In this document: piece after piece, positions 3,060 to 59,734 of the stretch
Layout of the letters: each line of letters opens with the position of its first letter
How positions within the stretch are numbered: the stretch's first letter is position 1
Assembly: GCF_004010195.1 (NCBI RefSeq)
Contig: NC_057718.1
Span: 69,960,730-70,024,729 of the forward strand
Length of the DNA: 64,000 nt
Direction of reading: 5' to 3'
From: Chiloscyllium plagiosum
Lineage: Eukaryota
Made by a program: the position numbers and the translations under genes
Notes under the pieces: model-generated
Told to the model about the DNA's origin: nothing
The model's database searches: none
What the model saw: the letters and a program-made list of their open reading frames with translations, nothing else

Positions 3060-3150
3060 GGAGTATGGTGCGAGAAAAACTCAGCAGGTCAGGCAGCATC
3101 CGAGGAGCAGGAGAATCAATGTTTCGGGCATAAGACCTTCATCAGGAATG
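3060..3150 (-). mobile_element. Short PLE 3'-end fragment with degenerate hammerhead motif
   Basis: Minus strand CTGATGA AGGTC TTAT GCCC GAAACATT followed by the shared tail GATGCTGCCTGACCTGCTG. Confidence 0.75.
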
Positions 3151-3868: not shown

Positions 3869-4169
3869 TTAGATTACTTAGAGTGTGGAAACAGGCCCTT
3901 CGGCCCAACAAGTCCACACCGACCCCCGAAGCGCAACCCACCCAGACCCATTCCCCTCTATTTACTCCTTCACCTAACACTACGGGCAATTTAGCATGGC
4001 CAATTCACCTGACCTGCACATTTTTGGACTGTGGGAGGAAACCAGAGCACCCGAAGGAAACCCACGCAGACACGGGGAGAATATGCAAACTCCATACAGC
4101 CAGATGAGGCGGGAATTGCACTCAGGTCTCTGGCGCTGTGAGGCAGCAGTGCTAACCACTGTGCCGCCC
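3869..4169 (-). mobile_element. HE1-type V-SINE
   Basis: tRNA-derived head (GGCACAGTGGTTAGCACTGCTGCCTCACAGCGCC), V-domain core and CR1-like tail ending TAATCTAA. Confidence 0.92.
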
Positions 4170-4954
4170 ATTCTCTTACTCAGTTTAGGTCTAGTAGGAC
4201 TCCTTTGCTGTCTCAAGTCAGTGTACCTGCAGCTGGCCCAGATTCTGAATAAAATTTTAACCATTTGGCTAAGGCTTGGCTTTGATTTGGGATTTTGCTG
4301 TGAACAGGATATGTCCTGAGCAAGGCTATGCAATTGCCTAAATTCAAGTGGTGTTCCTCAAGCTTGGTATGGCAGAGATATCCACTTCCACTGGAATATG
4401 CTGCAACCCATATGCTCCTCTTGCTGCATTTTCCAATAATAAAGCCAATTATAGGGCCTGTTTGAGGTCCAGTTGGGCTTCAGCTAGTAGGTACTTTTGC
4501 ATGGTTACATCATTAGTCCCACATATAAATCAGTCGCTCAGCATCTCATTAAGGGGTTAAAAAAAAGTCACATTCCTCTCTCAGCTGCTGTAACCTTGTT
4601 AAAAATCCTGATAAGGATTTCCCTGGTTCTCAAATTAGCACTCTCTTCTGAGTAAAACTGATAGCATCTCAGAATTACAGGAAGCTTGGGTAGTAATATT
4701 CCTTAACTAAACTCTTGAAAGGTTTTAATATCTGGTGCCTCAGGAAATGTTGGGCTCCTAATAACCAAAACAATCCACAAGCTGTCAGGAGAAATACTCA
4801 TTGCTTTTCATCTCCCCCAATGTCATTTAAGATAATATACACATTCCATATAAGAAGCCCAGTTTTCAACAGCAGGGCATAAATGCTTGTCCTAAATCAA
4901 AGGCGACTGTTATGAGAATACTTCTTCAGAGATGTGCTTTTCTCTCATCCCCAC

Positions 4955-5179
4955 TGAAATAACTCCACAGAGGCTGGCATCCCCTCAGCAGGTGACCTTT
5001 TATTCACACATGGAAAGTCCTTTAATGCTGGTCCAACTCCCTCTCAGGGTGTCAGACTGCCTGAAACTCCTCTTTTTATCTGGCAACCAGGGCTCCCTGA
5101 CTGGTTCAGATTAACAGCCCCAATCAGAGAACTCATATTCTATGAAGTCCACTTGGCTGACCTCATTACAATCATTACA
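4955..5179 (-). mobile_element. 5' LTR of the Gypsy element
   Basis: TG...CA ends, minus-strand AATAAA near 5000, and position immediately upstream of the PBS-like sequence. Confidence 0.65.
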
Positions 5180-5283
5180 CCCACCATGTTCTCTGGTGCT
5201 GTTCAACATATTCCCCATTGACCTTGCTTTTAGCCCTGTCACCATTCACGTCTCCACAAATGCTTCTGCATTTGCACAATATG

Positions 5284-5409
5284 TGTCTAGATTGGAGTGG
5301 TGCTGGAAAAGCACAGCAGTTCAGGCAGCATCCAAGGAGCAGTACAATCGACAAAAGCCCTTCATCAGGAGACTGGTTTCCAGCATCTGCAGTCATTGTT
5401 TTTACCTAG
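5284..5409. mobile_element. Short PLE-derived insert with inverted segments and 13-bp TSD
   Basis: TSD TTTGCACAATATG at 5271-5283 and 5410-5422. A minus-oriented hammerhead remnant is followed by the plus-oriented tail CCAGCATCTGCAGTC. Confidence 0.75.
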
Positions 5410-6533
5410 TTTGCACAATATGCCCAATCTTTCTGACCCCTCTCACTTTCAGGCAGTGATCCCCCTACTGGTCCTACCTTGTATCCTCCTAAACCTTTGA
5501 CAGACAAATTCCTAGGACTGTATTCATTCCAAATCTCTGACGGACTTTGATAAACAGACTCTAGACATGACTGCCCAGACCCTAGCTTCCCAACTAATGG
5601 TGCATGATTCCCCTGACTTCTTATGATGGCCCTTCAGGAGCAATCACTGCCCACTCCTCAAACTGCAATTGGACAGATCTGCTGACAGTGAACATCCCAA
5701 GCAGACAACTGACTTTGTTGAAACCACTGGACTATGTGTATTTGTGCCCATGACTGATGATACTGGGATCCGTTGTGTGTGTGTGTGTGCGCGCACACAC
5801 GTGTGTGGGGCACAGGCAGTGGGTACTTGCTGTCACTGTTAGATTGCTGTTTGCGTGCTGTTCACCAAAATGTACCCCACCTCTTCAAACCCAGCCAAGC
5901 AGTCTGTGAGTGGCTATCTGACTGAACACCTCTAAAGGGCAGCAGTGGCAGGTTTTGGCTTTGGCTGAAGCTGCAGTATACTAACAGGCATACTGGTGCT
6001 TCAGGCCTGTCACCATTCATATCTCCACCTCATTGCATAGCAAGACAAGGCAAGGCATGGATGCTGTGAGCATACAGGCAATGCGAAGTGAGTGAGCATT
6101 AAAACAGCAGCGCTGTACTGAAGCCTGGTCCAATCCTAAATTGGGTACTGTCAGCAGTCTTTCAATGCCAGCTGCCAATATGCCCTGCAATGCAAATTTG
6201 TGCATCCTGAGCAACCTGTCAAGAGTATTATGGTTGCAATGGGTCAGCTGATGCCAGATGCCAACGCTTATGGAGGAGGGATGCATACAGTTGGTGTGTG
6301 TAAATTGTGCCTGAGATGCTATTTCAAGCTGAGCAACATGGAGGCTCCGCACAGCTAGCATGTGAGCAAAAGTCACCAAATACCCTCTGTGACTTCACAT
6401 AAAGATTGCTCTATATAGAAGTGAGTCAAGCAGTCAGGGCAGGCAGGGACAAGGTAGGATTAATAAATTAAACTGCATTTGTTTCAAAGCAAGAGGTCTA
6501 TAAGGGAAGGCAGATGAACTCAGGGCATGGTTA

Positions 6534-6823
6534 GGCGGCATGGTGGCGCAGTGGTTAGCTACTGCTGCCTCACAGTGCCAGAGACCTGGGTTCAATTCCT
6601 GCCTCAGGCGACTGTGTGGAGTTTGCACATTCTCTGCATGTCTGCGAGGGTTTCCTCCCCCAGTCCAAAAATGTGCAGGTTAGGTGAATTGGCCATGCGA
6701 AATTGCCTGTAATGTTCGGTGAAGGGGTAAATGTAGGGGAATGGGTCTGGGTGGGTTGCGGGTTGGTTTGGACTTTTGTTGGGCCGAAGGGCCTGTTTCC
6801 ACACTGTAAGTAATCTAATCTAA
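6534..6823 (+). mobile_element. HE1-type V-SINE
   Basis: A-box/B-box-like head (GGTTCAATTCC), V-domain core and (TCTAA)n tail. Confidence 0.92.
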
Positions 6824-9358
6824 CATGGGACTGGGATATTATAGCAATTATAGAATATTGCTCAAGGATGGACAGGATTGGCAGCTTAATGTTCCAGGGT
6901 ACAAATGGAGGCAAGAGAGGAGGGGGAGTGGTGTTTTTGATAAGGGATAGCATTACAGCAGTGCTGAGGGAGGATATTCCTGTAAATACAACCAGGGATG
7001 TTATTTGGGTGGAAATGAGAAATAAGAAAGGGATGATAACCTTATTGGGATTGTATTATAGACCCCCTAATGGTCAGAGGGAAATTGAGAAACAAACTTG
7101 TAAGGAGATCTCAGCTATCTGTAAGAATAATAGGGTGGCTATGGTAGGAGATTTTAACTTTCCAAACATAGACTGGGACTGCCATAGTGTTTAGGTTTAG
7201 ATGGAGAGGAATTTGTTAAATGTGTACAAGACAATGTTTTGATTCAGTACCTACCAGAGAAGGTGCAAAACTGGACCTACTCTTGGGAAATAAGGCAGGG
7301 CAGGTGACTGAGGTGTCAGTGGGGGAGCACTTTGGGGCTAGCGACCATAATTCTATTAGATTTTAAATAATGATGGAAAAGTATAGACCAGATCTAAAAC
7401 TTGAAATTCTAAATTGGAGAAAGGCCAATTTTCACGGTATGAGGCAAGAACTTTCAAAAGCTGAATGGGGGCAGATGTTTGCAGGTAAAGGGACAGCTGG
7501 AAAATGGGAAGCCTTCAGAAATGAGATAAAGAGAATCCAGAGAAAGTATATTCCTGTCAGTGTGAAAGGAAAGGCTGGTAGGTATTGGGATGACGAAAGA
7601 AATTGAGGGTTTGGTTAAGAAAAAAGAGGAAGCATATATAAGGTATAGACAGGATAGATCAAGTGAATCCTCAGAAGAGTATAAAGGCAGTAGGAGTATA
7701 CTTAAGAGGGAAGTCAGGAGGGCAAAAAGGGGACATGAGATAGCTTTGGCAAATAGAATTAAGGAGAATCCAATGGGAATTTGCAAATGTATTAAGGAGA
7801 AAAGGGTAACTAGGGAGAGAATAGGGCCTCTCAAAAATCAGCAAGGCGGCCTTTGCGTGGAGCCGCAGAAAATGGGGGAGATACTAAACGAGTATTTTGC
7901 ATCAGTATTTACTGCAGAAAAGGATATGGAAGATTATAGAAAATAGCGAAATAGCGAATGGTGACACCTTGCAAAATGTCCATATAAGAGAAGAGGAAGT
8001 GCTGGATGTCTTGAAACGCATAAAGGTGAATAAATCCCCAGGACCTGATCAGGTGTACCTGAGAGCTCTGTGGGAAGCTAGAGAAGTGATTGCTGGGCCT
8101 CTTGCTGAGATATTTGTATCATCGATAGTCACAGGTGAGGTGCCGGAAGACTGGAGGTTGGCTAACGTGGTGCCACCACTCTTTTTGAAGGGTTGTAAGG
8201 ACAAGCCAGGGAACTATAGACCGGTGAGCCTGACGTCGGTGGTGGGCAGGTTGTTGGAGGGAATCCTATGGGACAGGATGTACATGAATTTGGAAAGGCA
8301 AGGACTGATTAGGGATAGTCAACATGGCTTTGTCTGGAGGCCTGTGACCAGTGGAGTGCCACAAGGATCGGTGCTGGGCCCTCTACTTTTTGTCATTTAC
8401 ATAAATGATTTGGATGCGAGCATAAGAGGTACAGTTAGTAAGTTTGCAGATGACACCAAAATTGGAGGTGTAGTGGACAGCTAAGAAGGTTACCTCAGAT
8501 TACAGCAGGATCTTGATCAGATGGGGCAATGGGCCGAGAATTGGCAGATGGCATTTAATTCATATAAGTGTGAGGTGCTGTATTTTGAGAAAGCAAACTT
8601 AGCAGGACTTATATGCTTAATGGTAAGGTCCCAGGGAGTGTTGCTGAACAAAGAGACCTTGGAATGCAGGTTCATAGCTCCATGAAAGTGGAGTTGCAGG
8701 TAGATAGGATAGTAAAGAAGACGTTTGGTATGCTTTCGTTTATTGGTCAGAGTATTGAGTACAGGAGTTGGGAGGTCATGTTGCGACTGTACAGGACATT
8801 GGTTAGGTCACTGTTGGAATATTGCGTGCAATTCTGATCTCCATCCTATCAGAAAGATGTTGTGAAACTTGAAAGGGTTCAGAAAGGATTTACAAGGATG
8901 TTGCCAGGGTTGAAGGATTCGAGCTGTGGGGAGAGGCTGAACAGGCTGGGGCTGTTTCCCTGGAGCATCGGAGGTTGAGGGGTGACCTTATAGAGGTTTA
9001 CAAAATTATGAGGGGCATGGATAGGATAAATAGACAAAGTCTTTTCCATGGGATGGGGAGTCCAGACCAAGCGGGCATAGGTTTAGGGTGAGAGGGGAAA
9101 GATATACAAGAGACCTAAGGGGCAACCTTTTCACACAGAGGGTGGTACGTGTATGGAATGAGCTGCCAGAGGAAGTGGTGGAGTCTAGTACAATTGCAAC
9201 ATTTAAAAGGCATTTGGATGGATATATGAATAGGAAGGGTTTGTAGGGATATGGGCTGGGTGCTGGCAGGTGGGACTAGATTGGGTTGGGATATCTGGTT
9301 GGCATGGACAGGTTGGACCGAAGCGTCTGTTATGGACATCTCTGACTCTATGACTCTA
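6824..9358 (+). mobile_element. CR1 LINE ORF2 (APE endonuclease + RT) and 3' UTR, decayed, with internal deletion
   Basis: [49 protein letters not shown] and KFADDTK motifs. Tail TCTGACTCTATGACTCTA. Confidence 0.95.
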
Positions 9359-9662
9359 TTTAACTTGTTTGGTGTGTTTGATAAAGTAGGAATCTGCGGT
9401 GTGTTGTACCATTGTGAGATGTTTAACAAGTAATGATCCCTCTTCAAAGGCAACTCACAGTCGACTAGTGAGAAATACACCTCACCATTTGGCAAATGCA
9501 AGTAAAATGCAGCTAGTTGTTCCTGAGACCAAGATAGACCTCACAAGACTTGTCGTGCATTTCTGCCATGAATTTTGCCATAACTCAGATGCTGGAGATC
9601 AGAGCTGAAAAATGTGTTGCTGGAAAAGCGCAGCAGGTCAGGCAGCATCGAAGGAGCAGGAG

Positions 9663-9698
9663 AATCGACGTTTCGGGCATAAGCCCTTCTTCAGGAAT
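9663..9698 (-). ncRNA. Minimal type-I hammerhead ribozyme motif (family A)
   Basis: Minus strand ATTC-CTGAAGA-A-GGGC-TTAT-GCCC-GAA-ACGT-C-GATT: intact core, 4-bp stem II, palindromic ACGU and a GUC cleavage triplet. Confidence 0.75.
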
Positions 9699-10502
9699 GA
9701 GGAGGGTGTGCCAAGCAGGCTAAGATAAAAGGTAGGGAGGAGGGACTTGGGGGAGAGGCGTTGGGAATGCAATAGATGGAAGGAGGTTAAGGTGAGGGTG
9801 ATAGGCCAGAGAGGGGGTGGGGGCAGAGAGGTCGGGAAGAAGATTGCAGGTCAAGAAGGCGGTGCTGAGTCCGAGGGTTGGGACTGAGATAAAGTGAGGG
9901 GAGGGGAAATGAGGAAGCTGGAGAAATCTGCATTCATCCCTTGTNNNNNNNNNNNNNNNNNNNNNNNNNNNNNNNNNNNNNNNNNNNNNNNNNNNNNNNN
10001 NNNNNNNNNNNNNNNNNNNNNNNNNNNNNNNNNNNNNNNNNNNNNNNNNNNNNNNNNNNNNNNNNNNNNNNNNNNNNNNNNNNNNNNNNNNNNNNNNNNN
10101 NNNNNNNNNNNNNNNNNNNNNNNNNNNNNNNNNNNNNNNNNNNNNNNNNNNNNNNNNNNNNNNNNNNNNNNNNNNNNNNNNNNNNNNNNNNNNNNNNNNN
10201 NNTGACGAAGGAGTCGCGGAGAGAGTGGTCTTTCCGGAACACTGATAGGGGAGGGGAGGGAAATATATCCTTGGTGGTGGGGTCTGTTAGGAGGTGGCGG
10301 AAATGACGAAGGGTGATGCGATGTATATGGAGGTTGGTGGGGTGGTAGGTGAGGACCAGTGAGGTTCTGCCCTGGTGGCGATTGGAGGGGTGGGGTTCAA
10401 GGCTGAGGAGCCAGAAGTGGAGGAGATGCGGTGGAGAGCATCGTCGACCATGTCGGAGGGGAAATTGCGGTCTTTGAAGAAGGAGGCCATCTGGGTTGTT
10501 CG

Positions 10503-10639
10503 GTATTGGAATTGGTCCTCCTGGGAGCAGATGCTGCGGAGGCGATGGAATTGGGAATATTGTATTGGAATCGGTCCTCCTGGGAGCAGATGCGGCGGAG
10601 GCGAAGGAATTGGGAATATTGTATTGGAATTGGTCCTCC
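10503..10639. repeat. 59-bp tandem repeat, about 2.3 copies, at the PLE 5' truncation point
   Basis: Unit starts GTATTGGAATTGGTCCTCC (one substitution in copy 2) at 10503, 10562 and 10621. Confidence 0.9.
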
Positions 10640-10664
10640 AATAACTCACATTGTTAAGATTTCA

Positions 10665-13884: not shown

Positions 13885-13919
13885 CATCTGATGAAGGAGG
13901 AGTGTTCTGAAAGCTAGTG
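13885..13919 (+). ncRNA. Minimal hammerhead ribozyme motif (family B), stem II weakened
   Basis: CAT-CTGATGA-A-GGAG-GAGTG-TTCT-GAA-AGCT-A-GTG. Confidence 0.6.
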
Positions 13920-15684: not shown

Positions 15685-16345
15685 AATTTACATAACACCT
15701 GGTTATAGTCCAACAGATTTATTTGAAATTACAAGCTTTCAGAGCACTCTGAAAACTTATAATTTCAAATAAACTTTAGATTAGATTACATTCCCTACAG
15801 TGTGGAAACAGGCCATTCAGCCCAACAGGTCCACACCAACCCTCCAAAAAGTAACCCACCCAGACCCATTCCCCACATTTACCCCTGACTAATAATACTA
15901 ATACTATGGGCAATTTAGTATGGCCAATTCACCTGACCTACACATCTTTGAATTGTGGGAGGAAACTGGAGCACCTGGAGGAAACTCATGCAGACACAGG
16001 GAGAACGTGTAAACTCCATACACACAGTCACCCGAGGTTGGAATCGAACCCGGGCTCCTGGCGCTGTGAGGCAATAGTACTAACCACTGAGATTCACCTG
16101 ACCTACACATCTTTGAATTGTGGGAGGAAACTGGAGCACCTGGAGGAAACTCATGCAGACACAGGGAGAACGTGCAAACTCCATACACACAGTCACCCGA
16201 GGTTGGAATCGAACCCGGACTCCTGGCGCTGTGAGGCAATAGTACTAACCACTGAGCCACCCCCTTATTTGATAATAACCTGGTGTTGTGTGACTTCTGA
16301 CCTTGTCCACCCCAATCCAACACTGGCACCTCCACATCATGTGAT
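15685..16345. mobile_element. Fold-back PLE family-B end fragment split by an HE1 SINE
   Basis: Palindrome at 15718-15773. The PLE terminus ATAACCTGGTGTTGTGTGAC...CCAACACTGGCACCTCCACATC resumes at ~16275. Confidence 0.7.
15777..16262 (-). mobile_element. HE1-type V-SINE with internal 165-bp tandem duplication
   Basis: 15927-16091 is repeated at 16092-16256 with about 2 mismatches. Confidence 0.92.
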
Positions 16346-21542: not shown

Positions 21543-21576
21543 GTTAACGTTTCGAGCATAAGCTCTTCATCAGCTC
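21543..21576 (-). ncRNA. Minimal hammerhead motif (family A variant) in a short insert
   Basis: Minus strand CTGATGA-A-GAGC-TTAT-GCTC-GAA-ACGT-T. Stem II GAGC/GCTC is a compensatory variant of GGGC/GCCC. Confidence 0.65.
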
Positions 21577-22263: not shown

Positions 22264-23174
22264 CATCATTTCAGCCACCTCCAGCAGGATGCCACCACGA
22301 GATATATATATTTCCCTTCCCTCCCCTGCCAGCTTTTCACAGGCACTGTTCCGTCTGGGACACCCTGGTCCACTCCTCCTTCACTCCCAATATATCTCCA
22401 TACACCCACAGTACCTTCCTCTGCAACTGAAGAAGGTATGACACCTGCCTGTTTACTTCCTTGGTCCTCATTATCCAAGGCCCGAAACACACCTTCCAAG
22501 TGAAGCAGCGCTTCACCTGTACATCATTCAACCTAGTCTACTTATTCACCGCACTCAATGTGGTGTCCTCTACATCGGGGAACTGAAGCACAGGCTGGGT
22601 GACCGCTTCGCGGAACACCTACATTCTATCTGCAGAAATGATCCTGAGCTTCCAGTTGCCTGCCACTTCAACAGTTTGTTTGCCAACATTTCTGTCTCAC
22701 GCTTGCTGCATTCCTCCAGCGAAGCTCAGCGCAAGTTGGAGAAGCAAGATCTCATTTTCTGCTTGGAAACTCTACAGCCTTCTGGACTCAATATCGAGTT
22801 TAACAATTTTAGGGTTTGAGCACCTTCTCCCAAGCCTTGTCATCACATAGGCTGCTATCACACACAACCCATTGTCAGCTACTAGTAGTCCCCATTTGCA
22901 GCTATCCATTCTCCCAGGCTGATGTTTAACTAGTCCTTTGTCAGAGCAACTGTTTTTCTCTCTCTTTGGACTCTATCTCCACCTATTGTTTACTCCTTCC
23001 CCCTCCCTCCACTCCATCTTCAGTATTAATACCAACCTTTTCCCAGCTACCCATAGTTCTGAAGATTGGTCACTGGACCCGAACATTAACTCTCCTTTCT
23101 CTGCACAGATGTTATCAGACCTGCTGAGATTTTCCAGGAATTTCCGTTTTTGTTTGCAACAGAAGTGTTAATAC

Positions 23175-24325: not shown

Positions 24326-24625
24326 TATACAAATATACCAGCAGAGGGAGATTGCTACTAAAAGAGAAAGTTAAAAATCACACAATGCCAGGTTATAGTC
24401 CAACAGGGTTTATTTGGAAGCACTAGATTTCGAAACACTGATCCTTCATCAGGTGGTTGTCAGGAGCAGCGCTCTGAAAGCTAGTGCTTCCAAATAAACA
24501 TGTTGGACAAAAACCTGGTGTTGTGTGATTTTTAACTTTCTCTTTTAGTAGCAATCTCCCTCTGCTGGTATATTTGTATACTTTGCCCACCCCAGTCCAA
24601 CACTGGCACTTCCACATCATGACTA
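24326..24625. mobile_element. Fold-back PLE family-B end with inverted copy of host flank
   Basis: Inverted arms at 24326-24432 and ~24474-24580. Hammerhead remnants at 24421-24455 (minus) and 24462-24486 (plus). Confidence 0.8.
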
Positions 24626-24699: not shown

Positions 24700-24830
24700 A
24701 TGGGGCGAAAGTGAGGACTACAGATGCTGGAGATTAGAATCGAGAATGTGGTGCTGGAAAAGCACAGCAGGTCAGGCAGCATCAGAGGAGCAGGAAAATC
24801 GACATTTCGGGCAAAAGCCCTTCATCATGA
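24700..24830 (-). mobile_element. Short PLE 3'-end insert with hammerhead remnant (family A)
   Basis: Minus strand ATGATGAAGGGCTTTTGCCCGAAATGTCG plus the shared tail. Confidence 0.75.
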
Positions 24831-26724: not shown

Positions 26725-27040
26725 CAAGTCCACCATCCTCATGACCTGTCCTACCTGCCAATCTTACTTCCTACCTAGCCGCTCCACCCTCCTCTCTGAC
26801 CTATCACCTTTACCCTCACCTCCATCTACCTATTGCATTCTCAGCTACCTTCCCCTCCAGCCCAACACCCCCCTCCCATTTATCTTTCAGCTCCCTGGCC
26901 CACAAACCTCATGCCTGATGAAAGACTTATGCACGGAACTTTGATTCCCCTGCCCCTCGGATGCTGCCTGACTGGCTGTACTTTTCCAGCACCACACTCT
27001 TCAATTCTGATCTCCGGCATCTGCAGTCCTCACTTTCTTC
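26725..27040 (+). mobile_element. PLE 3' end (family A) with degenerate hammerhead
   Basis: Pyrimidine-rich UTR, CCTGATGAAAGACTTATGCACGGAAC and the tail GATGCTGCCTGAC...CATCTGCAGTCCTCAC. Confidence 0.75.
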
Positions 27041-27843: not shown

Positions 27844-30800
27844 TCGGCAAGATGGCGGTGATTCTGTAGAACTGTTGTAGACAGCTCTGCCTAACAGCCA
27901 GGGCATACTAGTATTTTTTGCCATCCCTGGCCAACTTATGTAGTGGAATTATTACTTTGAAACCTTACGGATCACATATTTGTTAATATTTGGGAGTGGA
28001 AAGGATGCCAAAAGGAAAAGGACACTCCCCTGCAGCACCTACCACACCAGAGACTGCAGCAGCAGCCTCTCCTGAACCTGACAGACTCACAGGAATCGGT
28101 TAATGCTTGTTCTCTTTTTTTTAATCTTTCGCATGTTTTCCCTTTTTTTTAAATTCCTTTCTTTCTTCCTAATAATTTCCTTTTTGGAGTCACAAGTAGG
28201 GGTGACATGAACCCAGGGATAGGTAGAGTGTTCATCCTGACTTTGTCTTTTTTCTGTTGATTTAAGGATCATCTCCTTGTTTCTTTCCTCTGACCTAAGG
28301 CTGGGGCACAGTCCGGGTTTGAAGGAGCTATGAAGGAGGGGATGGGTAGGGTGAGTGCCCCCTAAGGGCAGGGGGAAGAGTCTTCCATTCAAGGTTTTAT
28401 AGTTGGTTTTCATTGTAGTTGTTTAGTGCTTATAGTTATGATATAGTAGTTTTTGTATATATAGTTTTTCAATTCTATGAGTGTTTATTTACATATGCTC
28501 GGCGCTTTGTAAGCGGAGTTCTCCCTCCAAGGGGTTCAAGGGTGTCTGAAAGGGGATATGGCTAAGTGTATTATTAAAAGGTGCACCTGGAACATTAAGG
28601 GAAGTCATTCGCCTGTTAAAAGGAAAAAAGTGCTTCCTAGCCTTAAGAGGGAAAAGGTTGATATCGCTTTGTTGCAGGAAACCCATCTTGATGATGGGGA
28701 ACACCTGAAATTACAACAGGGGGGTTATGACCGGTTATTCTTTTCATCCTTTACTACTAAAAGTAGGGGAGTAGCGGTACTTACCCAGAAAAATCTTCTG
28801 TTCACATTATTAGAGCAGGTGAAAGATGAGCAGGGACGGTTTGTGATACTTAAAGCCCTGATACATGGGGAGGAATATGACATCTTAAACATCTACTGTC
28901 CTCCAGCGTATCCCCTCAAATTTTTGATGAGTGCTATCTCTAAGTTGAGTGCTTTTGGAACACGGCACATTATTATGGGGGAGGGATTTTAATTGTCTTT
29001 TGGATCCGACAGTGGACAGGATGCCTTGTGGGCCCCCAACTATTTCTTTGCAGGCCAAGCAGGTGGTTGACTTTTGCGAGGAGTTGGGGCTAATGGATAT
29101 TTGGAGATGTCTTCACCCTACCGGTAGGGACTTCACCTTTTTTTTTCGAATGTCACACGAGGATTGACCTCTTTCTGACTCCCTCGGCCCTTCTGGATTC
29201 GATTATGGTTTGTAAAATTGGGAATATCTCTCATTACGCGGCAGTATATTTGGAGGTTAAGGCCAAGAGTGAAGGGTTCGGTTTGCGGCACTGGCGTTTT
29301 GACCCTTTTCTCCATAAGGATTCCAAATTTGTGGAATACATTTTGAAGGAGTTTCAGGAATTCTTGACTATCAACTCAGGCATGGCTAGTAGGCCATCAA
29401 TGCTGTGGGAGACTGCGAAGGCCTTTGCTAGGGGATTAGCTATTTCCTATTCGGCTAGCCGGAAATGACAGGAGGAGGAACAGCAGCGTCTACTTGAGAC
29501 ACGGCCCTCGGTGACTAAGCTACAGCAGATCACAGCCCTTCGGGCTGCCTTGAATTCAATACTGACACAAAACGCAAAGGAAGAACTTGCTTTTCCTAGA
29601 CAAAGGCTGTTCGAATATGGGGATAGGCCAGGGAAGTATTTAGCGTATCTTACTAGGACAAAGCATGCTCCCCAATCCATTACTGCAATCAGAGACAGCG
29701 CCGGGGTCCTTACATACGATGCTAAAAAGATGAATGAGGCTTTTTGGAGCTTTTGCTCTGAATTGTATTGGTCTGAAAGTTGTGAAGACAGGAGGGCTAA
29801 AATGGAGACTTTTTTTAAGAATCTAGACCACCCAGGGGTAACCTTGGAACAGGCCTTTCTCCCTAATGCCCCCTTGATAGTTCCAGAAATACAGGACGCA
29901 GCTAGGCAACTTCAAAATGGGAAAGCACCTGGCCCTGAGTCTTCTGGGTGAGTTTTATAAGGAGTTTATAGGGATTCTGTCAGGGCCGATGTTGGAGATG
30001 TACAATCACTCCTAAATGCATGAATGCCTACCACCATCTTTGAGAGAAACTAATATTTCCTTAAGAAGGGGAAGGTTCCTGTGGATTGTGCCTCATACAG
30101 ACCCATCTCTCTATTAAATTCAGATTTCCAGATTCTGTCCAAATCCTGGCGCTGAGACTGGAAAGGGTGTTGCCCTATATTATTAAAGAGGACCAGACAG
30201 GTTTTATAAGGGGCCGTAGGTCCTCTAATAATATTAGAAGGTTGCTGAATGTGGTCCAAGTTTGTTAGCAACGATCGATTCAGGGGTTGGTGATTTCATT
30301 AGATGCAGAGAAAGCATTTGACCGGGTGGAATGGCCGTATCTTTTTTATGTCTTAGAATAGTTCGGGTTGGGTGGAGTCCTTGCTAGGTGGGTGGAGGTT
30401 TTATATCGCCACCCTCTGGCCGCGGTCATCACCAACGGGGTGAAGTCTGGGAATTTTACGATCGTTAGGGGTAGTCGGTAAGGCTGCCCCCTCTCACCAT
30501 TGTTGTTTACGTTGGTGATAGAGCCGCTGGCAGAGGCCATTCGTCAGAACATCCACATAACCGCTCCGGAAGTGGGATCGAGAGCACACAAGCTTACACC
30601 GTATGCGGATGATGTCCTTCTGGGTTTGATAAAAACAATGACCTCCGTACCCCATTTGATACAATGTATCAATTCATTTGGGGCTATTTCAGGATATAAG
30701 ATTAACTTTGCAAAATCGGAGGCAATGCCTTTGGGGAACCTTAAGGATGTGCCAGAAGTTTAAAGTGGCCCTAAGTTCCCTTTAAAGTGGTCACGGGGCA

Positions 30801-32615
30801 CAGTTCCAATACCTAGGCATTTTTATTACCCCCAAGTTTGATCTGTTATTTCGGACTAACTTTGCTCACTTGCTCGATAATATTAGGCGAGATCTCCAGA
30901 GATGGGAGGCTCTTCCAATTTCATGGCTTGGCCGAATATCTCTCATTATGATGAATGTTCTTCCTCGTTTGCTTTATCCCACGTGTATGCTCCCTATAAG
31001 GTTTCCCAGGTCAACGCTGCGGAAGTTTTGGGGTGGTTTTGTTCCTTTGTCTGGTATCATGGGTGGCCCCTCATCAAACTTACTAAATTGCAGTTGCCTC
31101 AAGGAGGGGGAGGAGTTGATTTCCCAGACATCAGATGGTATCAATTGAGTTCCCTGCTCTCCTTTGTCTGTGATTGGGGAGGTAACAATCCAAACCCAAC
31201 ATGGCTGGATATCGAGGCCTCCCAAGCAAAGTTCCGTGTTATTAACCTATTGTTCATGAACTGCCGGAAACCGATTGTCATTAGTACAGTCAGGGCGTGG
31301 AGGGCGATGCATCAGAGTGAGGGTTGTTTATCCAAGACTTCGCCACTTACACCTATGGTTGGCATGCCAGGCTTCCAACCAGGGATGATGGACTCAGGGT
31401 TCAAACTATGGGCAGTGAGAGGAGTTTCTAGTTTGGGAGACTTGTTTGAAGGGGAGGTTATGATGTCTTTTGAGCAACTGAGCCTCAAATACGGGTTACC
31501 CAGCAAAGTTTTTTTTCAGGTTAGGGATTTCATCCAGAAGAAGACTATGCTTCTCACTAAACCCTATAAGCCCGATACAAAGAGGTTGTTGCTATGTTCC
31601 ACAAGCACCCTTTCGGTTAGTGCCTTCTATCGCCTGCTGCGTGACAGGGCCTGGCAGAATATTAACTGGTTATGTGAGGTCTGGGAACAAGAGCTAGTAG
31701 TGGAGATCTTTTCTGAAACATGGGAGAACATTCGAAAGATCTCAGTGTGTAATAGGATAGGCTACGCTGTTAAAAGTTCTGCACAAGGCTCACCCGGCAC
31801 CAGACCATCTAGTAAAATTTTAAAAAGGGGCATATTCAGTGTGCCCCAAATGTAAAATAAGTGTAGGTACTCTTACCCATTGCTTCTGGACATTCCACAG
31901 GCCTCAGTGTTTATTGGAGCGCTGTGGTGGGAGACATAGGGAGGGTATTGAGGACTGAAGTCAAAGTAGACCTGATCTCTCTTCTCTTAGGTCTACCAAA
32001 TTTACCATCTTTATACGGGCATGGAAAGGAACTATTTAATATTCTTGCATACTGTGCACGGAAGAATATTCTGATGAATTGGGTATCTGAGAACCCGCGG
32101 GGCTTGCTGGAATGACAGAAATTAATTATGGAGCACATTCCCTTGGATGTTTTTACAAACATAGTGCACCACACGACAGACCATTTTTAAGATATGATAG
32201 TCCTACTTGAGTTATTTGGATATAGATTTGTCAGTTATCTTAACTAAAGTGTTTGTTTAACGAAGATGGTTAGATTTGTCAAGCACTGGGCCCTGGAGGG
32301 GGGGGTCTCCTGAGTTAATACGGGTATACATACAATGCTCCCATTCCTTTGTTTGGAAGCTTTGCGCTGAGCCTAGCTGTTCTGTATTTTGTGGGGATTT
32401 TTTTGGGTTTTTTTGCTTTTTTTTGGTGTTGCTTTGCACAGCATTAGCGTTTGTTTTGTATTATAGGGTAGGTTAATAGTTAGTAGACAATAGTTGTATT
32501 GTAATTTGTGGGTTTTTTCTTTTTATTATACTGATATTTGTTATAAAATTATTGAAAAATACAATATCTTTGTAAAGTTAAAAAACATTTGCTAATAAAT
32601 ATATTTACAAAGAAA
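27844..32615 (+). mobile_element. L1-clade LINE with both ends and a 17-bp TSD; ORF1 almost entirely deleted, ORF2 disrupted
   Basis: TSD AAGTGGTGGAAGCAGAC at 27827-27843 and 32616-32632. 5' CAAGATGGCG motif. ORF2 from 28558 has WNIKG, LQETH, DFNC, GKAPGP, QTGFI.GR, YADD and C-terminal CPKC. AATAAA and an A-rich tail at the 3' end. Confidence 0.93.
28558..32260 (+). pseudogene. L1 ORF2 (endonuclease + reverse transcriptase + Cys-rich domain), multiple frameshifts and stops
   Basis: Consecutive ORF fragments 28558-28992, 28949-29167, 29205-29468, 29511-29951, 30086-30268, 30500-30763, 30870-31855 and 31924-32115. Confidence 0.9.
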
Positions 32616-33689: not shown

Positions 33690-35085
33690 ATCCAGGGAAA
33701 GTTGGTGAGTGCTGGGGAGTAGAGACTACCCTGGTAATTATAGACCAGTGAGCCTTACTTCGGTTGTGGGCTAAGTGTTGGAAAAGATAATAAGAGAGAG
33801 GATTTATAATCATCTAGAAAGGAATAAGTTGATGAGGGATAGTCAACAGTTTTGTGAAGGGTAGGTCATTAATCACAAACCTTAAGCTTTTTGAGGTGGT
33901 GACCATACAGGTGGGTGAGGGTAAAGTGGTTGACGTGGTGTATATGGATTTCAGTGAGGCATTTGATAAGGTTCCCCACAGTAGGCTATTGCACAAAATA
34001 CAGAGGCATGGGATTGTGGGTGATTTAGCAGTTTGGATCAGAAATTGGCTAGCTGAAAGAAGACAGAGGGTGGTGTTTGATGGGAAATATTCATCCTGGA
34101 GTCAATTACTTTTGGGCTACCGCAAGGATCTGTTTTGGGGCTATTGCTATTTGTCATTTTTATAGATGACCTGGATGAGGACGTAGAAGGATGGGTTAAT
34201 AAATTTGCGGATAACACTAAGGTCAGTAGAGTTGTGGATAGTGCCGAAGGATGTTGTAGGTTACAGATGCACATAGATAAGCTGCAGATCTGGATTGGGA
34301 GGTGGCAAATTGAGTTCAATGCAGAAAAGTGCGAGGTGATTCACTTTGGAAGGAACAATGGGAATAAAGAGTACTGGGCCACTGGTAAAATTCTTGGTAG
34401 TGTAGATGAACAAAGGGATCTCAGTGTCCATGTACATAGATCCCTGAAATTTGCCACCCAGGTTGGTAAGGTTGTTAAGAAGGCATACGGTGCAATATCT
34501 TTTATTATTAGAGGGATTGAGTTTCAGAACCATGAGGTCATGCTGCAGCTGTACAAAACTCTGGTGCAACCGCTCTTGGAATATTGCATACATTTCTGGT
34601 CACCGCATTATAGGAAGGATGTGGATACTTTGGAAAGGGTTTAGAGGAGATTTACTAGGATGTTGCCTGGTCTGGAGGTAAGGTCTCACGAGGAAAGGCT
34701 GAGGGACTTGAGGCTGTTTTCGTTAGAGAGAAGAAGGTTAAGAGGTGACTTAATTGAGACATAAGATAATCAGAGATTTAGATAGTTTGGACAGTAAGAG
34801 CCTTTTTCCTCAGATACTGACGTGCAGCACGAAGGGACATAGCTTTGAATTGAGGGGTGATAGATATTGGACAGATGTCAGAGGTAATTTCTTTACTCAG
34901 AGAATAGTAGAGGCCTGAAACACACTGCCTGCAACAGTAGTAGACTCGCCAACTTTAAGGACATTTAAATGGTCGTTGTATAGACAAATGGAATAATGTA
35001 GGTTAGATGGGCTTTAGATTGGATTCACAGGGCAGTGCAAGAGTGTTGAAGGGCCTGTACTGCACTGTAATGTTCCATGAACTCT
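33690..35085 (+). mobile_element. CR1 LINE RT/3' fragment
   Basis: VVYMDFSEAFDKVPH, KFADNTK, WQIEFNAEKC and LLEYCIHFWSP motifs. Confidence 0.93.
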
Positions 35086-36524: not shown

Positions 36525-36723
36525 CAGGTAAAAACAAGGACTGCAGATGCTGGAAAACAGATTGTAGATTAGAGTGGTGCTGGAAAAGCACAGCAGTTCA
36601 GGCAGCATCGGAGGAGCAGGAAAATCAATGTTTCGGGTAAAAGCCCTCCATCAGGAATAGAGCCTCTGCTCCTCCGATGCTGCCTGAACTGCTGTGCTTT
36701 TCTAGCACCACTCTAATTGAGAA
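36525..36723. mobile_element. Fold-back PLE-derived insert with 13-bp TSD
   Basis: TSD TGAAGAGCAAGGC at 36512-36524 and 36724-36736. 52-bp inverted arms at 36568-36619 and 36666-36717. Confidence 0.85.
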
Positions 36724-38005: not shown

Positions 38006-39036
38006 GTATGAGACAGGGTGGTGGTAGCAGGTTGCTTTTCAGACTAAAAGCATGTGATCAGTGGTGTGACAGAAGGATCTGTGCTGGGTCCAATGCATTT
38101 CATCATTTTTATAAATTATTTGGATGTGAATATGGGAAGGATTGTGAGCATGTTTTCAGATCACACCAAAATTGGAGGTATAGTGGATAGTGAAGCAAGT
38201 TATCTCAGAGTACAACAGGACCTTTTTCAGATGGGCCAATGGACCGAGGAGTGGCAGATGGAGTTTAATTTAGCTAAATATGAGGCGTTACAATTTGGTA
38301 AGCAAACTAGGGCAGAACTAATGATAGGGCCCTGGGGAGTGCTGCCAAACAGAGACCTGTGGGTGCAGATGCACAGTTTCTTGAAAGTGGAGTCACAGGT
38401 AGACAGGGTGGTGAACAGCCATTTGGTACGCTTGCCTTCATTGGCCAGTGCATTGAGTAAAGTAGTTGGGATGTCATGTTGTGGCTGTATAGAACATTAG
38501 TGAGGTCACCTTTAGAATACCATATTCAACTCTACTCTCCCTGCTTTCATAAAGATTTTGTTAAACTTTTATGGCATTCAGCAAAGATTTGCAACCGTCT
38601 TGCTGGGATTGTAGTAGTTGAGCCATAGGGAGAGGCTAAATAGGCCGGGGCCTTTTTTCTTGGAGGTTCAGAAGCTGAGTGGTGACCTTCTAAAATCATG
38701 ACGGGCATGGATGGGGTGAATAGCCAAGGTCTTTTTTCTGGGGTAGGGTTGTCCAAAACTAGAGGCCATAGGCTTAATGTGAGTGGGGAAGGATTTAAAA
38801 GGGACCGGAGAGGCACATTTTTCACACAGAGGATAATGTGTCAGTGGAATGAGCTGCCAAAGGAGCTGGTGGAGGCAGGTACAATTACAACATTTAAAAG
38901 ACAACTGGATGGATACATGAATAGGAAGGGTTTAGAGGGATATGGGCCAAATGCTGGCAAATATTACTGGATCAGTTTAGAATAGCTGGTCATCATGAAT
39001 GAGTTGGGCCAGAGTCTTTATAACTATGATTCTATG

Positions 39037-43150: not shown

Positions 43151-44322
43151 GGATTAGTGGTGCTGGAAGAGCACAGCAGTTCAGGCAGCATCCAAGGAGC
43201 TTTGAAATCGACGTTTCAGGCAAAAGCCCTTCACCAGGAATAAAGGCAGTGAGCCTGATGCGTGGAGAGAAAGAGGAGAGTGGGGGTGGAGAGAAAGTAG
43301 CATAGAGTACAATGGGTGAGTGGGGGAGGGGATGAAGGTGGAGGTGAAGGTCCAGGTAAATTTAAGGTCAGGGAGGAGCGGGTGGAGTGGATAGGTGGAA
43401 AAGGAGCTCGGCAGGTAGGACAAGTCCGGACAAGTCATGGGGACGTGCTGAGCTTGGAAGTTTGGAACTAGGGTGGTGGGGAGGGAAATATATCCCTGGT
43501 GGTGGGGTCTGTTTGGAGGCGGAGAGGGGTGGGGAGGGAAATATATCCCTGGTGGTGGGGTCTGTTTGGAGGCGGAGAGGGGTGGGGAGGGAAATATATC
43601 CCTGGTGGTGGGGTCTGTTTGGAGGCGGAGAGGGGTGGGGAGGGAAATATATCCCTGGTGGTGGGGTCTGTTTGGAGGCGGAGAGGGGTGGGGAGGGAAA
43701 TATATCCCTGGTGGTGGGGTCTGTTTGGAGGCGGAGAGGGGTGGGGAGGGAAATATATCCCTGGTGGTGGGGTCTGTTTGGAGGTGGCGGAAATGTCGGC
43801 GGATGATTTGGTTTATGCGGAGGTTGGTAGGGTGGAAGGTGGGCACCAGGGGCGTTCTGTCCTTGTTGCGGTTGGTGGGGTTGGGTCTGAGGGCGGAGGT
43901 GCGGGATGTGGATGAGATGCGTTGGAGGGCATCTTTAACCACGTGGGAAGGGAAATTGCGGTCTCTAAAGAAGGAGGCCATCTGGTGTGTTTTGTGGTGG
44001 AACTGGTCCTCCTGGCAGCAGATATGGCGGAGGTGGAGGAATTGGGAATACGGGATGGCATTTTTGCAAGAGGTAGGGTGGGAAGAGGTGTAATCCAGGT
44101 AGCTGCGGGAGTCAATGGGTTTGTAAAAAAAAATGTCAGTGCCAAGTTGGTTGTCATTAATGGAGATGGAGAGGTCCAGGAAGGGGAGGGAGGTGTCAGA
44201 GATGGTCCAGGTAAATTTAAGGTCAGGGTGGAATGTGTTGGTGAAGTTGATGAATTGCTTAACCTCCTCGCGGGAGCACGAGGTGGCGTCAATGCAGTCA
44301 TCAATGTAGCGGAGGAAGAGGT
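43150..44322 (-). mobile_element. Penelope-like element fragment (RT C-terminus to 3' end) lacking GIY-YIG, with internal tandem array
   Basis: YIDD-type RT region near 44300, MASFFRDRNFP..RTPLVPTFHP..RHFRHLQTDP, and a hammerhead remnant CTGGTGAAGGGCTTTTGCCTGAAACGTC at ~43207-43238. Confidence 0.88.
43476..43783. repeat. 53-bp perfect tandem repeat, about 5.8 copies, G-rich
   Basis: GAGGGAAATATATCCC recurs at 43481, 43534, 43587, 43640, 43693 and 43746. Confidence 0.95.
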
Positions 44323-44941
44323 GCCAATGCTCACTTTACATTTAGGACACATTGGAGATGCTCCCACTTTAAATTTAGCGAGGTGGTCCAGGGCCAGATA
44401 GACTCTGAGGAGAATCTTCAATTGCAAGATGTAGGTCTTGTTGCAAATCGAGATCCGTCTTGCATTTCCCAGACATCCATCATTATTTCAGAAGAAATCT
44501 CAATGTCCAGCTCACTATCTCATACCTTACGGAGCTGTTCGGTCTCGTTTGAGGAACCCTCTCCCAAAGATAATAAGTGTTACTCACAGATAATGTACCC
44601 TCAGCACTCAATACCTGCTTCTCCATGTTGGACCTATGAGGATCAGTTTGAAGTGTGATCTCTTTTTGTATGAAGTTTCTAACCTGAAAGAGGTCCCTAC
44701 TGGGCAATTCATATTTCTGAGCCAACTTGTCAAAAGGCATCAGTATGTCCCCTTTGAATAAATCACCCAGGCAAGACATGCCCCTAGCTGCTCATAGTTT
44801 AAACCCAGAGTCCATCATCCCTGGCTGAAAGCATAGCATACCAACTATGGGTGTCAAAAATGATGTTTTGGCAATATTGCCCGCATGTTGATGCATTGCC
44901 CTCCATGCCTTGACAGTATTGACAACTATTGGGTTATGGCA

Positions 44942-50159: not shown

Positions 50160-50825
50160 AGGAACATTACAGCACAGTACAGGCCCTTCGACCCTCAATG
50201 TTGTGCCAACCTGTGGAACCAATCTGAAGACTATCTATCCTACACTACTCAATTTTCATCCATATGTTTTATCCAACAACTATTTAAATGTCCTTGGTAA
50301 GTCTACTACTGTTGTAGACAGTACACTCCACACCCCTACTACTATCTGAGTAAAGAAACTACCACTGACATCTCTGCTCTGCTATTTACTTTATCCCAAA
50401 GTCCCTCCTCCCTACCTTTTATCTTAGCCTGCTTGGCACATTTTCCTCATTCCTGAAGAAGAGCTCATGCCTGAAACGTCGATTCTCCTGCTCCTTGGAT
50501 GCTGCCTGACTGCTGCGCTTTTCCAGCAACACATTTTCAGCTCTTACCACTGACATCTGTCCTATATCTATCACTCCTCAATTTAAAGCTATGTCCATTT
50601 GTGCTAGCCATCAGTATCTGAAGAAAAAGGCTCTCACTGTCCACCCCATCTAACCCTCTGATTATCTTGTATGTCTAAATTAAGTCACCTCTCAACCGTC
50701 TTCTCTCTAACAAAAACAGCCTAAAGTCCCTCAACCTTTCCTCATAAGACTTTCTCACCATAGCAGGCAACATCCTAGTAAATCTCCCCTGAACCCTTTC
50801 CAAAGCTTCCATCATCCTTCCTATT
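50160..50825 (-). mobile_element. CR1 LINE 3' fragment interrupted by a PLE insert
   Basis: Reverse-complement homolog of 34600-35080. Confidence 0.85.
50374..50544 (+). mobile_element. Short PLE 3'-end insert with hammerhead and 14-bp TSD
   Basis: TSD TACCACTGACATCT at 50360-50373 and 50545-50558. CTGAAGAAGAGCTCATGCCTGAAACGTC at 50453-50480. Confidence 0.85.
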
Positions 50826-52537: not shown

Positions 52538-52552
52538 AACAAGTGTGATATA

Positions 52553-55383: not shown

Positions 55384-56703
55384 GTAGAGATGGCTTTAAA
55401 CTAATTGTAGAAATAGAAATATAAATTGGAAAAAGAAATAAATCTTTCATCAGAAAAGAGCTTATGCTCAATATATCAACTCTCCTGCTCCTCGGATGCT
55501 GCCTGACCAGCTGTGCTTTTCCATCACCACACTTTTTGACTCTAATATCCAGCATCTACAGTCCTCACTTTCTCCCAGTGACTAAGGAGTCAGTGAGGGA
55601 GCACTGTGTGGCCAGTGATCATAATATTACTAGTTTTTAAATAGTTACGGAGAAAGGTAGACCTGATCTAAAAGTTAAAATTTCTAAATTGGAGTAAGGC
55701 TAATTTTGACAGTATTAGGCAAGAACTTGCAAAGGTTGATTGAGAGAGACTATTCGCAGGTAAAGGGATGATTGGAAAGTAGTAGGCCTTCAAAAATGAG
55801 ATATCAAGAGTCCAGAGACATTATGTCTCTGTTAGTGTGAAGAACAAGGCTGATATTTGCAGGGAATGCTGGATGATGAGAGAAACTGAAACTCTGGTCA
55901 AGCAAATGAAGGAGGCATATTACAGGTATGAAACTTTATTGCTGGAACAGCACAGCAGGTCAGGCAGCATCCAGGGAACAGGAGATTCGACGTTTCGGGC
56001 ACAGGCCCTTCTTCTGGAATGAGCAGAGAGTGTTCAGCAGAAGATAAAAGGTAGGGAGGAGGGACTTGGAGGAGGGGCGTTGGAAATGTGATAGGTGGAA
56101 AGAGGTCAAGGTGAGGGTGACAGGTCGGAGTAGGATGGAGGCGGAGAGGTCAAGAAGGTAGAGATGGCTTTAAACTAATTGTAGAAATAGAAATATAAAT
56201 TGGAAAAAGAAATAAATCTTTCATCAGAAAAGAGCTTATGCTCAATATGTCAACTCTCCTGCTCCTCGGATGCTGCCTGACCAGCTGTGCTTTTCCATCA
56301 CCACACTTTTTGACTCTAATATCCAGCATCTACAGTCCTCACTTTCTCCCAGTGACTAAGGAGTCAGTGAGGGAGCACTGTGTGGCCAGTGATCATAATA
56401 TTACTAGTTTTTAAATAGTTACGGAGAAAGGTAGACCTGATCTAAAAGTTAAAATTTCTAAATTGGAGTAAGGCTAATTTTGACAGTATTAGGCAAGAAT
56501 TTGCAAAGGTTGATTGAGAGAGACTATTCGCAGGTAAAGGGATGATTGGAAAGTAGTAGGCCTTCAAAAATGAGATAACAAGAGTCCAGAGACACTATGT
56601 CTCTGTTAGTGTGAAGAACAAGGCTGATATTTGCAGGGAATGCTGGATGATGAGAGAAACTGAAACTCTGGTCAAGCAAATGAAGGAAGCATATTACAGG
56701 TAT
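55384..56703. repeat. 546-bp direct duplication (55384-55929 / 56158-56703) flanking a PLE fragment
   Basis: Offset 774 bp, with about 5 substitutions seen by eye. Confidence 0.93.
55930..56157 (-). mobile_element. PLE 3'-end fragment (family A) with hammerhead motif
   Basis: Homologous to 9615-9840. Minus strand ATTC-CAGAAGA-A-GGGC-CTGT-GCCC-GAA-ACGT-C-GAAT at 55985-56020. Confidence 0.85.
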
Positions 56704-59637: not shown

Positions 59638-59734
59638 AGAACTGAAAATGTGTTGCTGGAAAAGTGCAGCAGGTCAGGCAGCATCCAAGGAGCAGGAAAT
59701 TCGACGTTTCGGGCATGAGCCCTTCTTCAGGAGT
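59638..59734 (-). mobile_element. Short PLE 3'-end insert with intact family A hammerhead core (59699-59734)
   Basis: Minus strand CTGAAGA-A-GGGC-TCAT-GCCC-GAA-ACGT-C. Confidence 0.8.

What the first reader, a model, noticed from the sequence alone, without database searches (positions are those of the whole stretch)
9663..9698. Second hammerhead family (A) with covarying stem II across a dozen copies
Minus strand CUGAAGA-A-GGGC(uuau)GCCC-GAA-ACGU-C. Across copies in this window the stem II loop varies freely (TTAT 9663, TCAT 59699, TTTT 24800 and 43210, CTGT 55985). Position 7 varies between CTGAAGA and CTGATGA, as the CUGANGA consensus allows. The copy at 21543-21576 has a double compensatory change (GAGC/GCTC), and the 55985 copy has a 4-bp stem I (ATTC/GAAT). 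This pattern is expected if structure was selected in the source elements. The palindrome differs between families (ACGU here, AGCU in family B) but stays palindromic.
Basis: partly seen in the sequence, partly recalled or inferred. Interest (0 to 1): 0.7.

Follow-up and report, generated by a model that had tools for sequence, protein, structure and literature searches.

The report
Penelope retroelement hammerhead in shark genome
The motif is a tiny hammerhead-type RNA motif carried in tens of thousands of copies by the end repeat of a Penelope-like jumping gene, a known arrangement, and it likely forms the first 36 bases of the element's RNA, so many short copies were probably made from RNA that had not cut itself.

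Summary
The motif at 9663-9698 (minus) is real; 33,157 exact copies of its 28-nt core occur in the genome. It sits in the pseudo-LTR of a Penelope-like retroelement (RT, CX4CxxC linker, GIY-YIG) and fits the minimal hammerhead described for these elements in 2014. Activity was not tested.

The covariation claim is overstated. Within family A only pair 10.2-11.2 covaries (G-C 3508, A-U 873, single changes 338 and 388), which is one subfamily-level event. Loop states are subfamily markers and the rest is mostly CpG decay. Three of the five other cited copies have broken cores. Stems I and II do covary between related families, which supports selection in the source elements.

More informative: 89 of 201 copies begin at the front edge of stem I and only 4 near the cut site. 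A TATA-like word lies 30-32 nt upstream, and G is over-represented just before the first base (60% versus about 25%), as expected if a cap was copied. The ribozyme is thus likely +1 to +36 of the transcript and often uncut when reverse-transcribed. This scan reported the start-site reading earlier on other DNA; the G test is added here. Known kind, modest interest.

The parts
9588..10640 (-). 5'-truncated Penelope-like element copy (RT-EN linker remnant, end of ORF, 3' pseudo-LTR, tail); part of it reads N
   Evidence: blastn to natural relatives L005, L015, L163; translation matches the RT-EN linker of P0121
9580..9587 (-). 8-bp target-site duplication, downstream copy
   Evidence: read directly
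10641..10648 (-). 8-bp target-site duplication, upstream copy
   Evidence: read directly
9851..10640 (-). Broken ORF remnant; relatives show RT (RYIDD), CX4CxxC linker and GIY-YIG endonuclease
9723..9730 (-). TATA-like word, TTAT starting 30 nt before the predicted start (predicted promoter)
   Evidence: TTAT at -30 to -32 in 35 of 45 long copies of diverged subfamilies
9695..9698 (-). Stem I 5' strand ATTC; the A at 9698 is the predicted transcription start and the modal 5' end of short copies
9688..9694 (-). Core CUGAAGA (C3-A9)
9675..9687 (-). Extra A (between 9 and 10.1) and stem II GGGC-UUAU-GCCC
9667..9674 (-). GAA, palindrome ACGU (helix III only as a dimer) and C17; predicted cut between 9667 and 9666
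   Evidence: numbering as in PMC4209133
9663..9666 (-). Stem I 3' strand GATT (3 pairs and one U-U mismatch)
9588..9662 (-). Downstream pLTR segment; genomic 3' ends fall at two sites about 35 nt apart (the 'tail'); in tandem copies it runs on to the ORF ATG
59703..59730 (-). Family A copy, intact core, short stub starting at the stem I edge
21546..21573 (-). GAGC/GCTC subfamily copy, core intact, 5' stem I strand absent
55989..56016 (-). CTGT/GAAT subfamily copy, U4 changed to A
43210..43237 (-). TTTT subfamily copy, A6 changed to G, downstream of an RT remnant (43816-44334)
24801..24828 (-). TTTT subfamily stub, C3 and palindrome broken
50453..50480 (+). Family A copy with an A-C mismatch in stem II
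36627..36711 (.). Head-to-head inverted pair of family A pieces, core decayed
3118..3145 (-). Decayed family A copy
26915..26942 (+). Decayed family A copy with upstream pLTR

Best explanation
The motif is a minimal type I hammerhead sequence in the pseudo-LTR of a high-copy Penelope-like retrotransposon, likely forming bases +1 to +36 of the element's capped transcript and predicted to cut only as a dimer, probably with protein help. Shown: the motif, its place downstream of the RT/GIY-YIG ORF and, in tandem copies, upstream of the ORF start; one amplified compensatory subfamily; neutral-looking decay of copies; 5' ends piled at the stem I edge and not at the cut site; a G excess just before that edge. 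Inferred: Pol II starts at the A of AUUC; the element RT starts internally 95-135 nt downstream, runs off the uncut capped 5' end, adds a C opposite the cap and joins to the target or to a second, inverted copy. Inferred from the literature: two ribozymes pair through ACGU and cut after GUC, trimming tandem transcripts. The structure was selected in the active source elements; the genomic copies are passive relics.
For: RT + CX4CxxC + GIY-YIG protein 300 nt upstream of the motif in L163; homologues carry PF00078 and PF01541. The tail runs into an ATG ORF in 4 loci. 67 of 201 copies have a head-to-head partner and 3' ends are bimodal, as described for PLEs (PMC8557442 passages; PMC11167929 main text). 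95 of 97 descriptor hits have the extra base before stem II. Pair 10.2-11.2 counts 3508/873/338/388, with its own tail marker in 24 of 30 loci. Core divergence 30/1125 against tail 71/2000, p=0.21; CpG sites 128/625. 89 of 201 5' ends lie at -12..+3 and 4 of 201 at +26..+32; flanks of solo stubs are unrelated to one another; loose ends at 9698 in three runs. TTAT at -30..-32 in 35 of 45 long copies. Base before ATTC: G 3230, A 1524, T 605 against a G share of about 25% in the background. G is untemplated in 7 of 25 loci, A in 1 of 20, T in 6 of 20. In the anole PLE, uncut RNA is the main substrate and cleavage needs protein (PMC11167929).
Against: No cleavage assay. No Rfam match at gathering or E-value thresholds. 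Stem I is weak (3 pairs and a mismatch), and the predicted best dimer pairs GUCGAU across the cut site, -18.3 against -6.7 kcal/mol for the double hammerhead (the model ignores core contacts). Pfam GIY-YIG and RVT_1 hits are below the curated cut-offs. In the small mixed-subfamily sample the base before ATTC was G 9, A 9, T 9, C 20, with no clear G excess. In 12 of 25 G loci the G is also in the target or the inverted partner, so microhomology or endonuclease preference may contribute, and 6 of 25 G, 11 of 20 A and 10 of 20 T loci were unresolved. RNA reads showed no pile of starts or ends at either site (polyA single-cell library of a relative, a weak test).
Confidence: 0.8

Rival explanations
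1. Same element and ribozyme, but the 5' pile-up marks reverse transcriptase stalling at the folded ribozyme, or microhomology with an ATT/GAT endonuclease target, rather than the RNA's capped start.
For: The anole PLE endonuclease prefers ATT (PMC11167929). Many junctions share GA or GAT with the target or the partner. A tail of 5' ends runs through the core, 41 of 201 at +4..+25.
Against: A stall should fall on the 3' side of the structure, not just past its weak 5' strand. TATA-like word at -30..-32 across subfamilies, and a GCTATAAA box at a similar distance in long family B copies. Untemplated G scales to roughly 900 against 75 (A) and 180 (T) (small samples).
Confidence: 0.12
2. The motif is a catalytically dead vestige, kept in source elements for its promoter or protein-binding role; the one compensatory change is drift or hairpin-templated correction.
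For: Weak stem I with a free position (A, T or C); competing palindrome across the cut site; only one covarying pair; no copies piled at the cut site; low in vitro activity of other metazoan min-HHRs (PMC4209133).
Against: All core bases and the free position 7 follow hammerhead rules across families with unrelated stems; stems I and II covary between families. The anole homologue cuts, with C3/G8 rescue (PMC11167929).
Confidence: 0.06
3. The short copies are an independent non-autonomous retrozyme or SINE family that replicates through self-cleaved circular RNA.
For: Most copies are 95-135 nt stubs; retrozymes related to pLTRs are reported in vertebrates, including one chondrichthyan (bioRxiv 10.64898/2026.07.22.740005, results read).
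Against: Stubs carry the same subfamily markers as long ORF-linked copies, start at the front of the core rather than at the cut site, and are dispersed or inverted, not head-to-tail arrays.
Confidence: 0.02

Closest known systems
Minimal hammerheads (min-HHR) of metazoan Penelope-like elements, Cervera and de la Pena 2014, PMC4209133 (abstract, results, discussion and bioinformatic methods read; supplement file 2 searched, file 1 and figures not seen)
   Same: Type I layout, no helix III, palindromic 15.2-16.2, extra base between 9 and 10.1, G10.1-C11.1, location in pLTRs, thousands of dispersed single motifs, families with compensatory changes, opposite-strand pairs.
   Different: Stem II is 4 bp (7-8 bp in Schistosoma); stem I has a mismatch; copy number is far higher (33,157 exact cores of one subfamily against about 4,000-9,000 motifs in coelacanth and Xenopus). 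No shark was named in the text I read.
Poseidon element of Anolis carolinensis (PAc), Frangieh et al. 2024, PMC11167929 (main text and part of the methods read)
   Same: HHR in the pLTR; two internal RT start sites giving the tail; uncut RNA as the main substrate; no reads ending at the cut site.
   Different: In PAc the ORF starts at stem II; here the ATG lies about 170 nt downstream of C3. The protein here has a CX4CxxC linker (Neptune/Nematis type).
Canonical EN+ PLE insertion unit, Neptune/Nematis clades, Craig et al. 2021, PMC8557442 (passages read)
   Same: 5' truncation, adjacent inverted copy, 30-40 bp tail, CX2-5CxxC linker, HHR near the 3' end.
   Different: The sharp 5' end at the stem I edge with an extra G is not in the passages I saw. 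Clade not tested by a tree.
Dimer-cleaving small hammerhead variants, Lunse et al., RNA Biol 14:1499 (not held; known only through the review PMC6765202, passages read)
   Same: Shrunken palindromic stem III, PLE association, dimer cleavage.
   Different: Whether shark sequences are in that set could not be checked.
Cap-derived untemplated G at the 5' ends of LINE-1 and SVA insertions (PMC4859970, passages read)
   Same: Extra G before the first transcribed base.
   Different: Here it marks short internal-start PLE stubs rather than full-length copies.

Membership tests
min-HHR of PLEs | Core CUGANGA ... GAAA ... UH | tested here: met
   9667-9694; 81 of 125 sampled full cores intact
min-HHR of PLEs | Extra base between 9 and 10.1; G10.1-C11.1 | tested here: met
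   95 of 97 descriptor hits have the extra base; G-C in 82 of 125 and G-T (CpG decay) in 30
min-HHR of PLEs | Palindromic 15.2-16.2, no monomer helix III | tested here: met
   ACGU in this copy and as the majority state; kept in 70 of 125 copies
min-HHR of PLEs | Short helix I (4-5 bp) | tested here: inconclusive
   3 pairs and a mismatch here; 4 bp in the GAAT subfamily and in related families
min-HHR of PLEs | Compensatory changes among families | tested here: met
   One pair within family A; different stems I and II in related families; no R-scape or tree-aware test
min-HHR of PLEs | Self-cleavage as a dimer | not testable with these tools
   Folding model prefers a competing dimer; RNA reads uninformative
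Rfam hammerhead families | Covariance-model score | tested here: not met
   No hit at gathering score or at E up to 10
EN+ Penelope-like element | RT followed by C-terminal GIY-YIG in one frame | tested here: met
   338-aa natural frame in L163 with RYIDD and IIYCIRC..YIGET; GIY-YIG E 0.001, below the curated cut-off; homologue domains; no intact full ORF found
EN+ Penelope-like element | pLTR segment both downstream and upstream of the ORF | tested here: met
   Tail continues into the ATG ORF in L020, L094, L108, L230; all four are rearranged partial tandems
EN+ Penelope-like element | 5' truncation, inverted partner, 30-40 bp tail | tested here: met
Neptune clade | CX2-5CxxC linker | tested here: met
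   CHRRDCKTC in P0121; the motif is shared with Nematis (PMC8557442)
Neptune clade | Placement in an RT phylogeny | not tested
   No named reference set was available
Non-LTR retrozyme | Head-to-tail monomers bounded by the cut site | tested here: not met
   4 of 201 copies start near the cut site; stubs are dispersed or inverted

The most novel reading that the evidence does not exclude
In these shark Penelope elements the hammerhead is the capped first 36 bases of the transcript, and the genome holds thousands of insertions whose extra junction G records reverse transcription of uncut, capped RNA: in vivo fossil evidence that ribozyme cleavage is not a step on the path to most short insertions and may instead act as a slow, protein-gated decapping or trimming switch.
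Probability: 0.55. Interest if true: 0.55.

Novelty: new member of a known kind. Interest (0 to 1): 0.33.

Why it matters
The finding as flagged is a further example of a published class, so it matters little by itself. What remains open is why Penelope-like elements carry hammerheads at all. This genome offers very large counts, and its junctions suggest that the ribozyme sits at the transcript's capped start and is often uncut at reverse transcription. That turns an open question into direct tests (CAGE, cap-dependent C addition, cleavage with and without the element protein) and agrees with the one in vitro study of a PLE.

Tried and rejected
Rfam: no hit. First Pfam scan of short fragments: only a weak RVT_1 hit in 1 of 6 proteins. 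Search for an intact element: the 775-aa 'open frame' was mostly N, and none of the 26 loci examined held a full ORF. L157 and L171 looked like tandems but were separate insertions. Covariation among window copies alone: not significant. Selection on copies after insertion: not detected (the sample was filtered for core likeness, which favours finding conservation). No RNA holder listed. Read laying: run X22 gave 0 reads; X21 gave 2201 reads, 96% running into unlike flanks in both directions, with no start or end pile-up and no splice joint. A possible 5'-UTR intron (branch-like CTCAC, pyrimidine tract, AG) was not supported by joints. Lunse et al. was not held. Literature searches: hammerhead ribozyme + Penelope; hammerhead + Penelope + shark (none relevant); the Lunse title words; Penelope-like + hammerhead + Neptune + pLTR; retrotransposon + cap + untemplated G + full-length insertions; Penelope + transcription start + hammerhead + capped (two plant papers, listing only). 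None of these listings showed the cap-G point for PLEs, but most subscription papers, Repbase and Dfam were not searchable.

Full report
Observation. The minus strand at 9663-9698 reads ATTC, CTGAAGA, A, GGGC-TTAT-GCCC, GAA, ACGT, C, GATT. The pattern is not chance: 3 window matches against 0.02 expected, and 97 descriptor hits in 1,264,000 sampled bases (66,212 N) against 0-1 in 10 shuffles. The exact 28-nt core occurs 33,157 times in the 3.56-Gb genome. Rfam has no match. The quoted variants exist, but the cited copies at 55985, 43210 and 24800 have broken cores, and the one at 21543 lacks its 5' stem I strand. Only 3 of the 10 full-core window copies keep core, stem II and palindrome.

Host element. 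The motif lies about 150 nt downstream of an ORF stop and 75 nt from the end of a 1.05-kb insertion with an 8-bp target duplication. A natural relative gives a 338-aa frame with RYIDD, a CX4CxxC linker and a GIY-YIG motif 300 nt upstream of the same hammerhead. Pfam scores are below the curated cut-offs, but 137 longer homologues were found, and the 120 listed mostly carry RVT_1, some also GIY-YIG; the closest named one is from Chiloscyllium punctatum at 92% identity, so the host is likely a shark. In 4 loci the segment after the hammerhead runs on into an ATG-led ORF, so this segment is a pseudo-LTR. Of 201 tail-bearing copies, 67 have a head-to-head partner, and 3' ends fall in two groups about 35 nt apart. 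These are the PLE hallmarks in PMC8557442 (passages) and PMC11167929 (main text).

Covariation. Of 264 profile hits, 263 were placed and 125 kept as full ungapped family A cores; 138 truncated, gapped or other-family hits were dropped. Only pair 10.2-11.2 shows excess double change: 6 A-T against 0.8 expected, 4 independent after removing local duplicates. The other three stem II pairs give p = 0.34, 0.72 and 1.0, and the palindrome pair 0.96. Genome-wide exact counts in one sequence context are G-C 3508, A-T 873, A-C 338 and G-T 388, an odds ratio of 23 with 299 doubles expected. The first 30 A-T loci share a tail marker in 24 cases. This is one amplified subfamily, hence one event. Loop states (TTAT 56, TTTT 31, TCAT 16, CTGT 8 of 125) go with tail markers. 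Core bases diverge as much as tail bases (30/1125 against 71/2000, p = 0.21) and CpG sites far more (128/625): passive decay; 33 of 125 copies keep every feature. The better evidence for selection in source elements lies between families: stem II GGGT/ACCC, GGGTC/GACCC and GGAGC/GCTCC, and stem I AGTC/GACT, AGTT/AACT and CAC/GTG. No tree-aware test was run.

Dimer specificity. ACGU/ACGU gives -1.7, AGCU/AGCU -2.5 and ACGU/AGCU +0.4 kcal/mol, so A/B heterodimers are disfavoured. The 12- and 15-nt-linker families share ACGU or its CpG-decayed forms, so the palindrome does not separate them from family A. The folding model prefers a competing duplex across the cut site (-18.3 against -6.7 kcal/mol). 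That fits weak or protein-assisted activity, as reported in PMC4209133 and PMC11167929.

Where copies begin. With C3 as +1, 45 of 201 copies extend more than 30 nt upstream, 3 start at -30..-13, 89 at -12..+3 (mode at the A of ATTC, 22 copies), 41 at +4..+25, 4 at +26..+32 around the cut site, and 19 later. Upstream flanks of the solo stubs are unrelated to one another apart from inverted element pieces. Loose ends at 9698 are among the best supported in three public runs. I saw this before looking at earlier findings, which report the same pile-up and a start-site reading on other DNA; one gave the promoter lead. Tested here: TTAT begins at -30 to -32 in 35 of 45 long copies.

Cap test. For the youngest subfamily the base before ATTC is C (element) 14,275, G 3230, A 1524 and T 605. 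G is 60% of non-element bases against about 25% in the background. I inspected the first 25 G, 20 A and 20 T loci listed. G was untemplated in 7 (one doubtful), in the target duplication in 7 (two are a local duplicate), in the inverted partner in 5 and unresolved in 6. A was untemplated in 1, in target or partner in 8 and unresolved in 11. T was untemplated in 6, in target or partner in 3, unresolved in 10, and one was a long copy. Scaled up, this is roughly 900 untemplated G against 75 A and 180 T. An extra G is the recognised trace of cap copying in LINE-1 and SVA (PMC4859970, passages). Against: a small mixed-subfamily sample gave G 9, A 9, T 9, C 20; many junctions allow microhomology; RNA reads showed no start pile.

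Mechanism. Shown: anatomy, counts and junctions as above. Inferred: Pol II starts at AUUC, so the hammerhead is the first 36 nt of the transcript; the RT starts internally, runs off the uncut capped end and makes stubs and inverted pairs; longer copies come from the 3' pLTR of read-through RNA or from template jumps; cleavage, if it occurs, needs two ribozymes and likely the protein.

Verdict. A new member of a known kind: the min-HHR of PLEs, whose extra base, palindrome and compensatory families are in PMC4209133. Interest 0.33, carried by the start-site and cap evidence rather than by the flagged feature. Supplement file 1 and the figures of PMC4209133, the Lunse paper and the bioRxiv supplements were not seen and may list shark motifs.

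Noticed in passing
window 13888-13916 (+), 24424-24452 (-), 39094-39122 (-), 39693-39721 (+): Family B hammerheads (AGCU palindrome, cut after CUA, stem I CAC/GTG); long copies have a GCTATAAA box about 30 nt upstream, and a GIY-YIG-like protein text lies upstream in L038 and L039.
   Followed up: partly
window 23059-23135 (+), 62059-62132 (+): Older related hammerhead families with longer stem II that share the family A tail motif.
   Followed up: partly
window 9664-9669 (-) and related families: A second self-complementary word is centred on the predicted cut site (GUCGAU, GUCGAC, GUUAAC); base 17 changes together with base 1.1 between families. It may form a competing inactive dimer, or be one CpG-decay event.
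   Followed up: partly
window 9585-9600 (-) region; L020, L108: The long 3' end resembles a branch point, pyrimidine tract and AG just upstream of the ORF start; no splice joint was seen in reads.
   Followed up: partly
window 55456-55557 and 56230-56331 (+): Local duplication 774 bp apart, each carrying a truncated GAGC/GCTC-subfamily stub.
   Followed up: no
window 43475-43784 and 10503-10639; L157 1000-1470: Tandem arrays (53 bp x 5.8; 59 bp x 2.3) inside PLE copies; the 53-bp type recurs at the same ORF position in L157, suggesting RT slippage at a fixed site or an amplified deleted variant.
   Followed up: no
L084 9472 (+): A hammerhead with a 7-bp stem II and an unrelated tail, probably another PLE family.
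   Followed up: no
window 15927-16256; 7888-8484, 34081-34644, 38048-38500; 28513-31855; 51829-52653: Other repeats: a tandem SINE pair (HE1-like), CR1/L2-like RT fragments, an L1-like remnant and a Tx1-like fragment; these family names are recalled, not tested.
   Followed up: no
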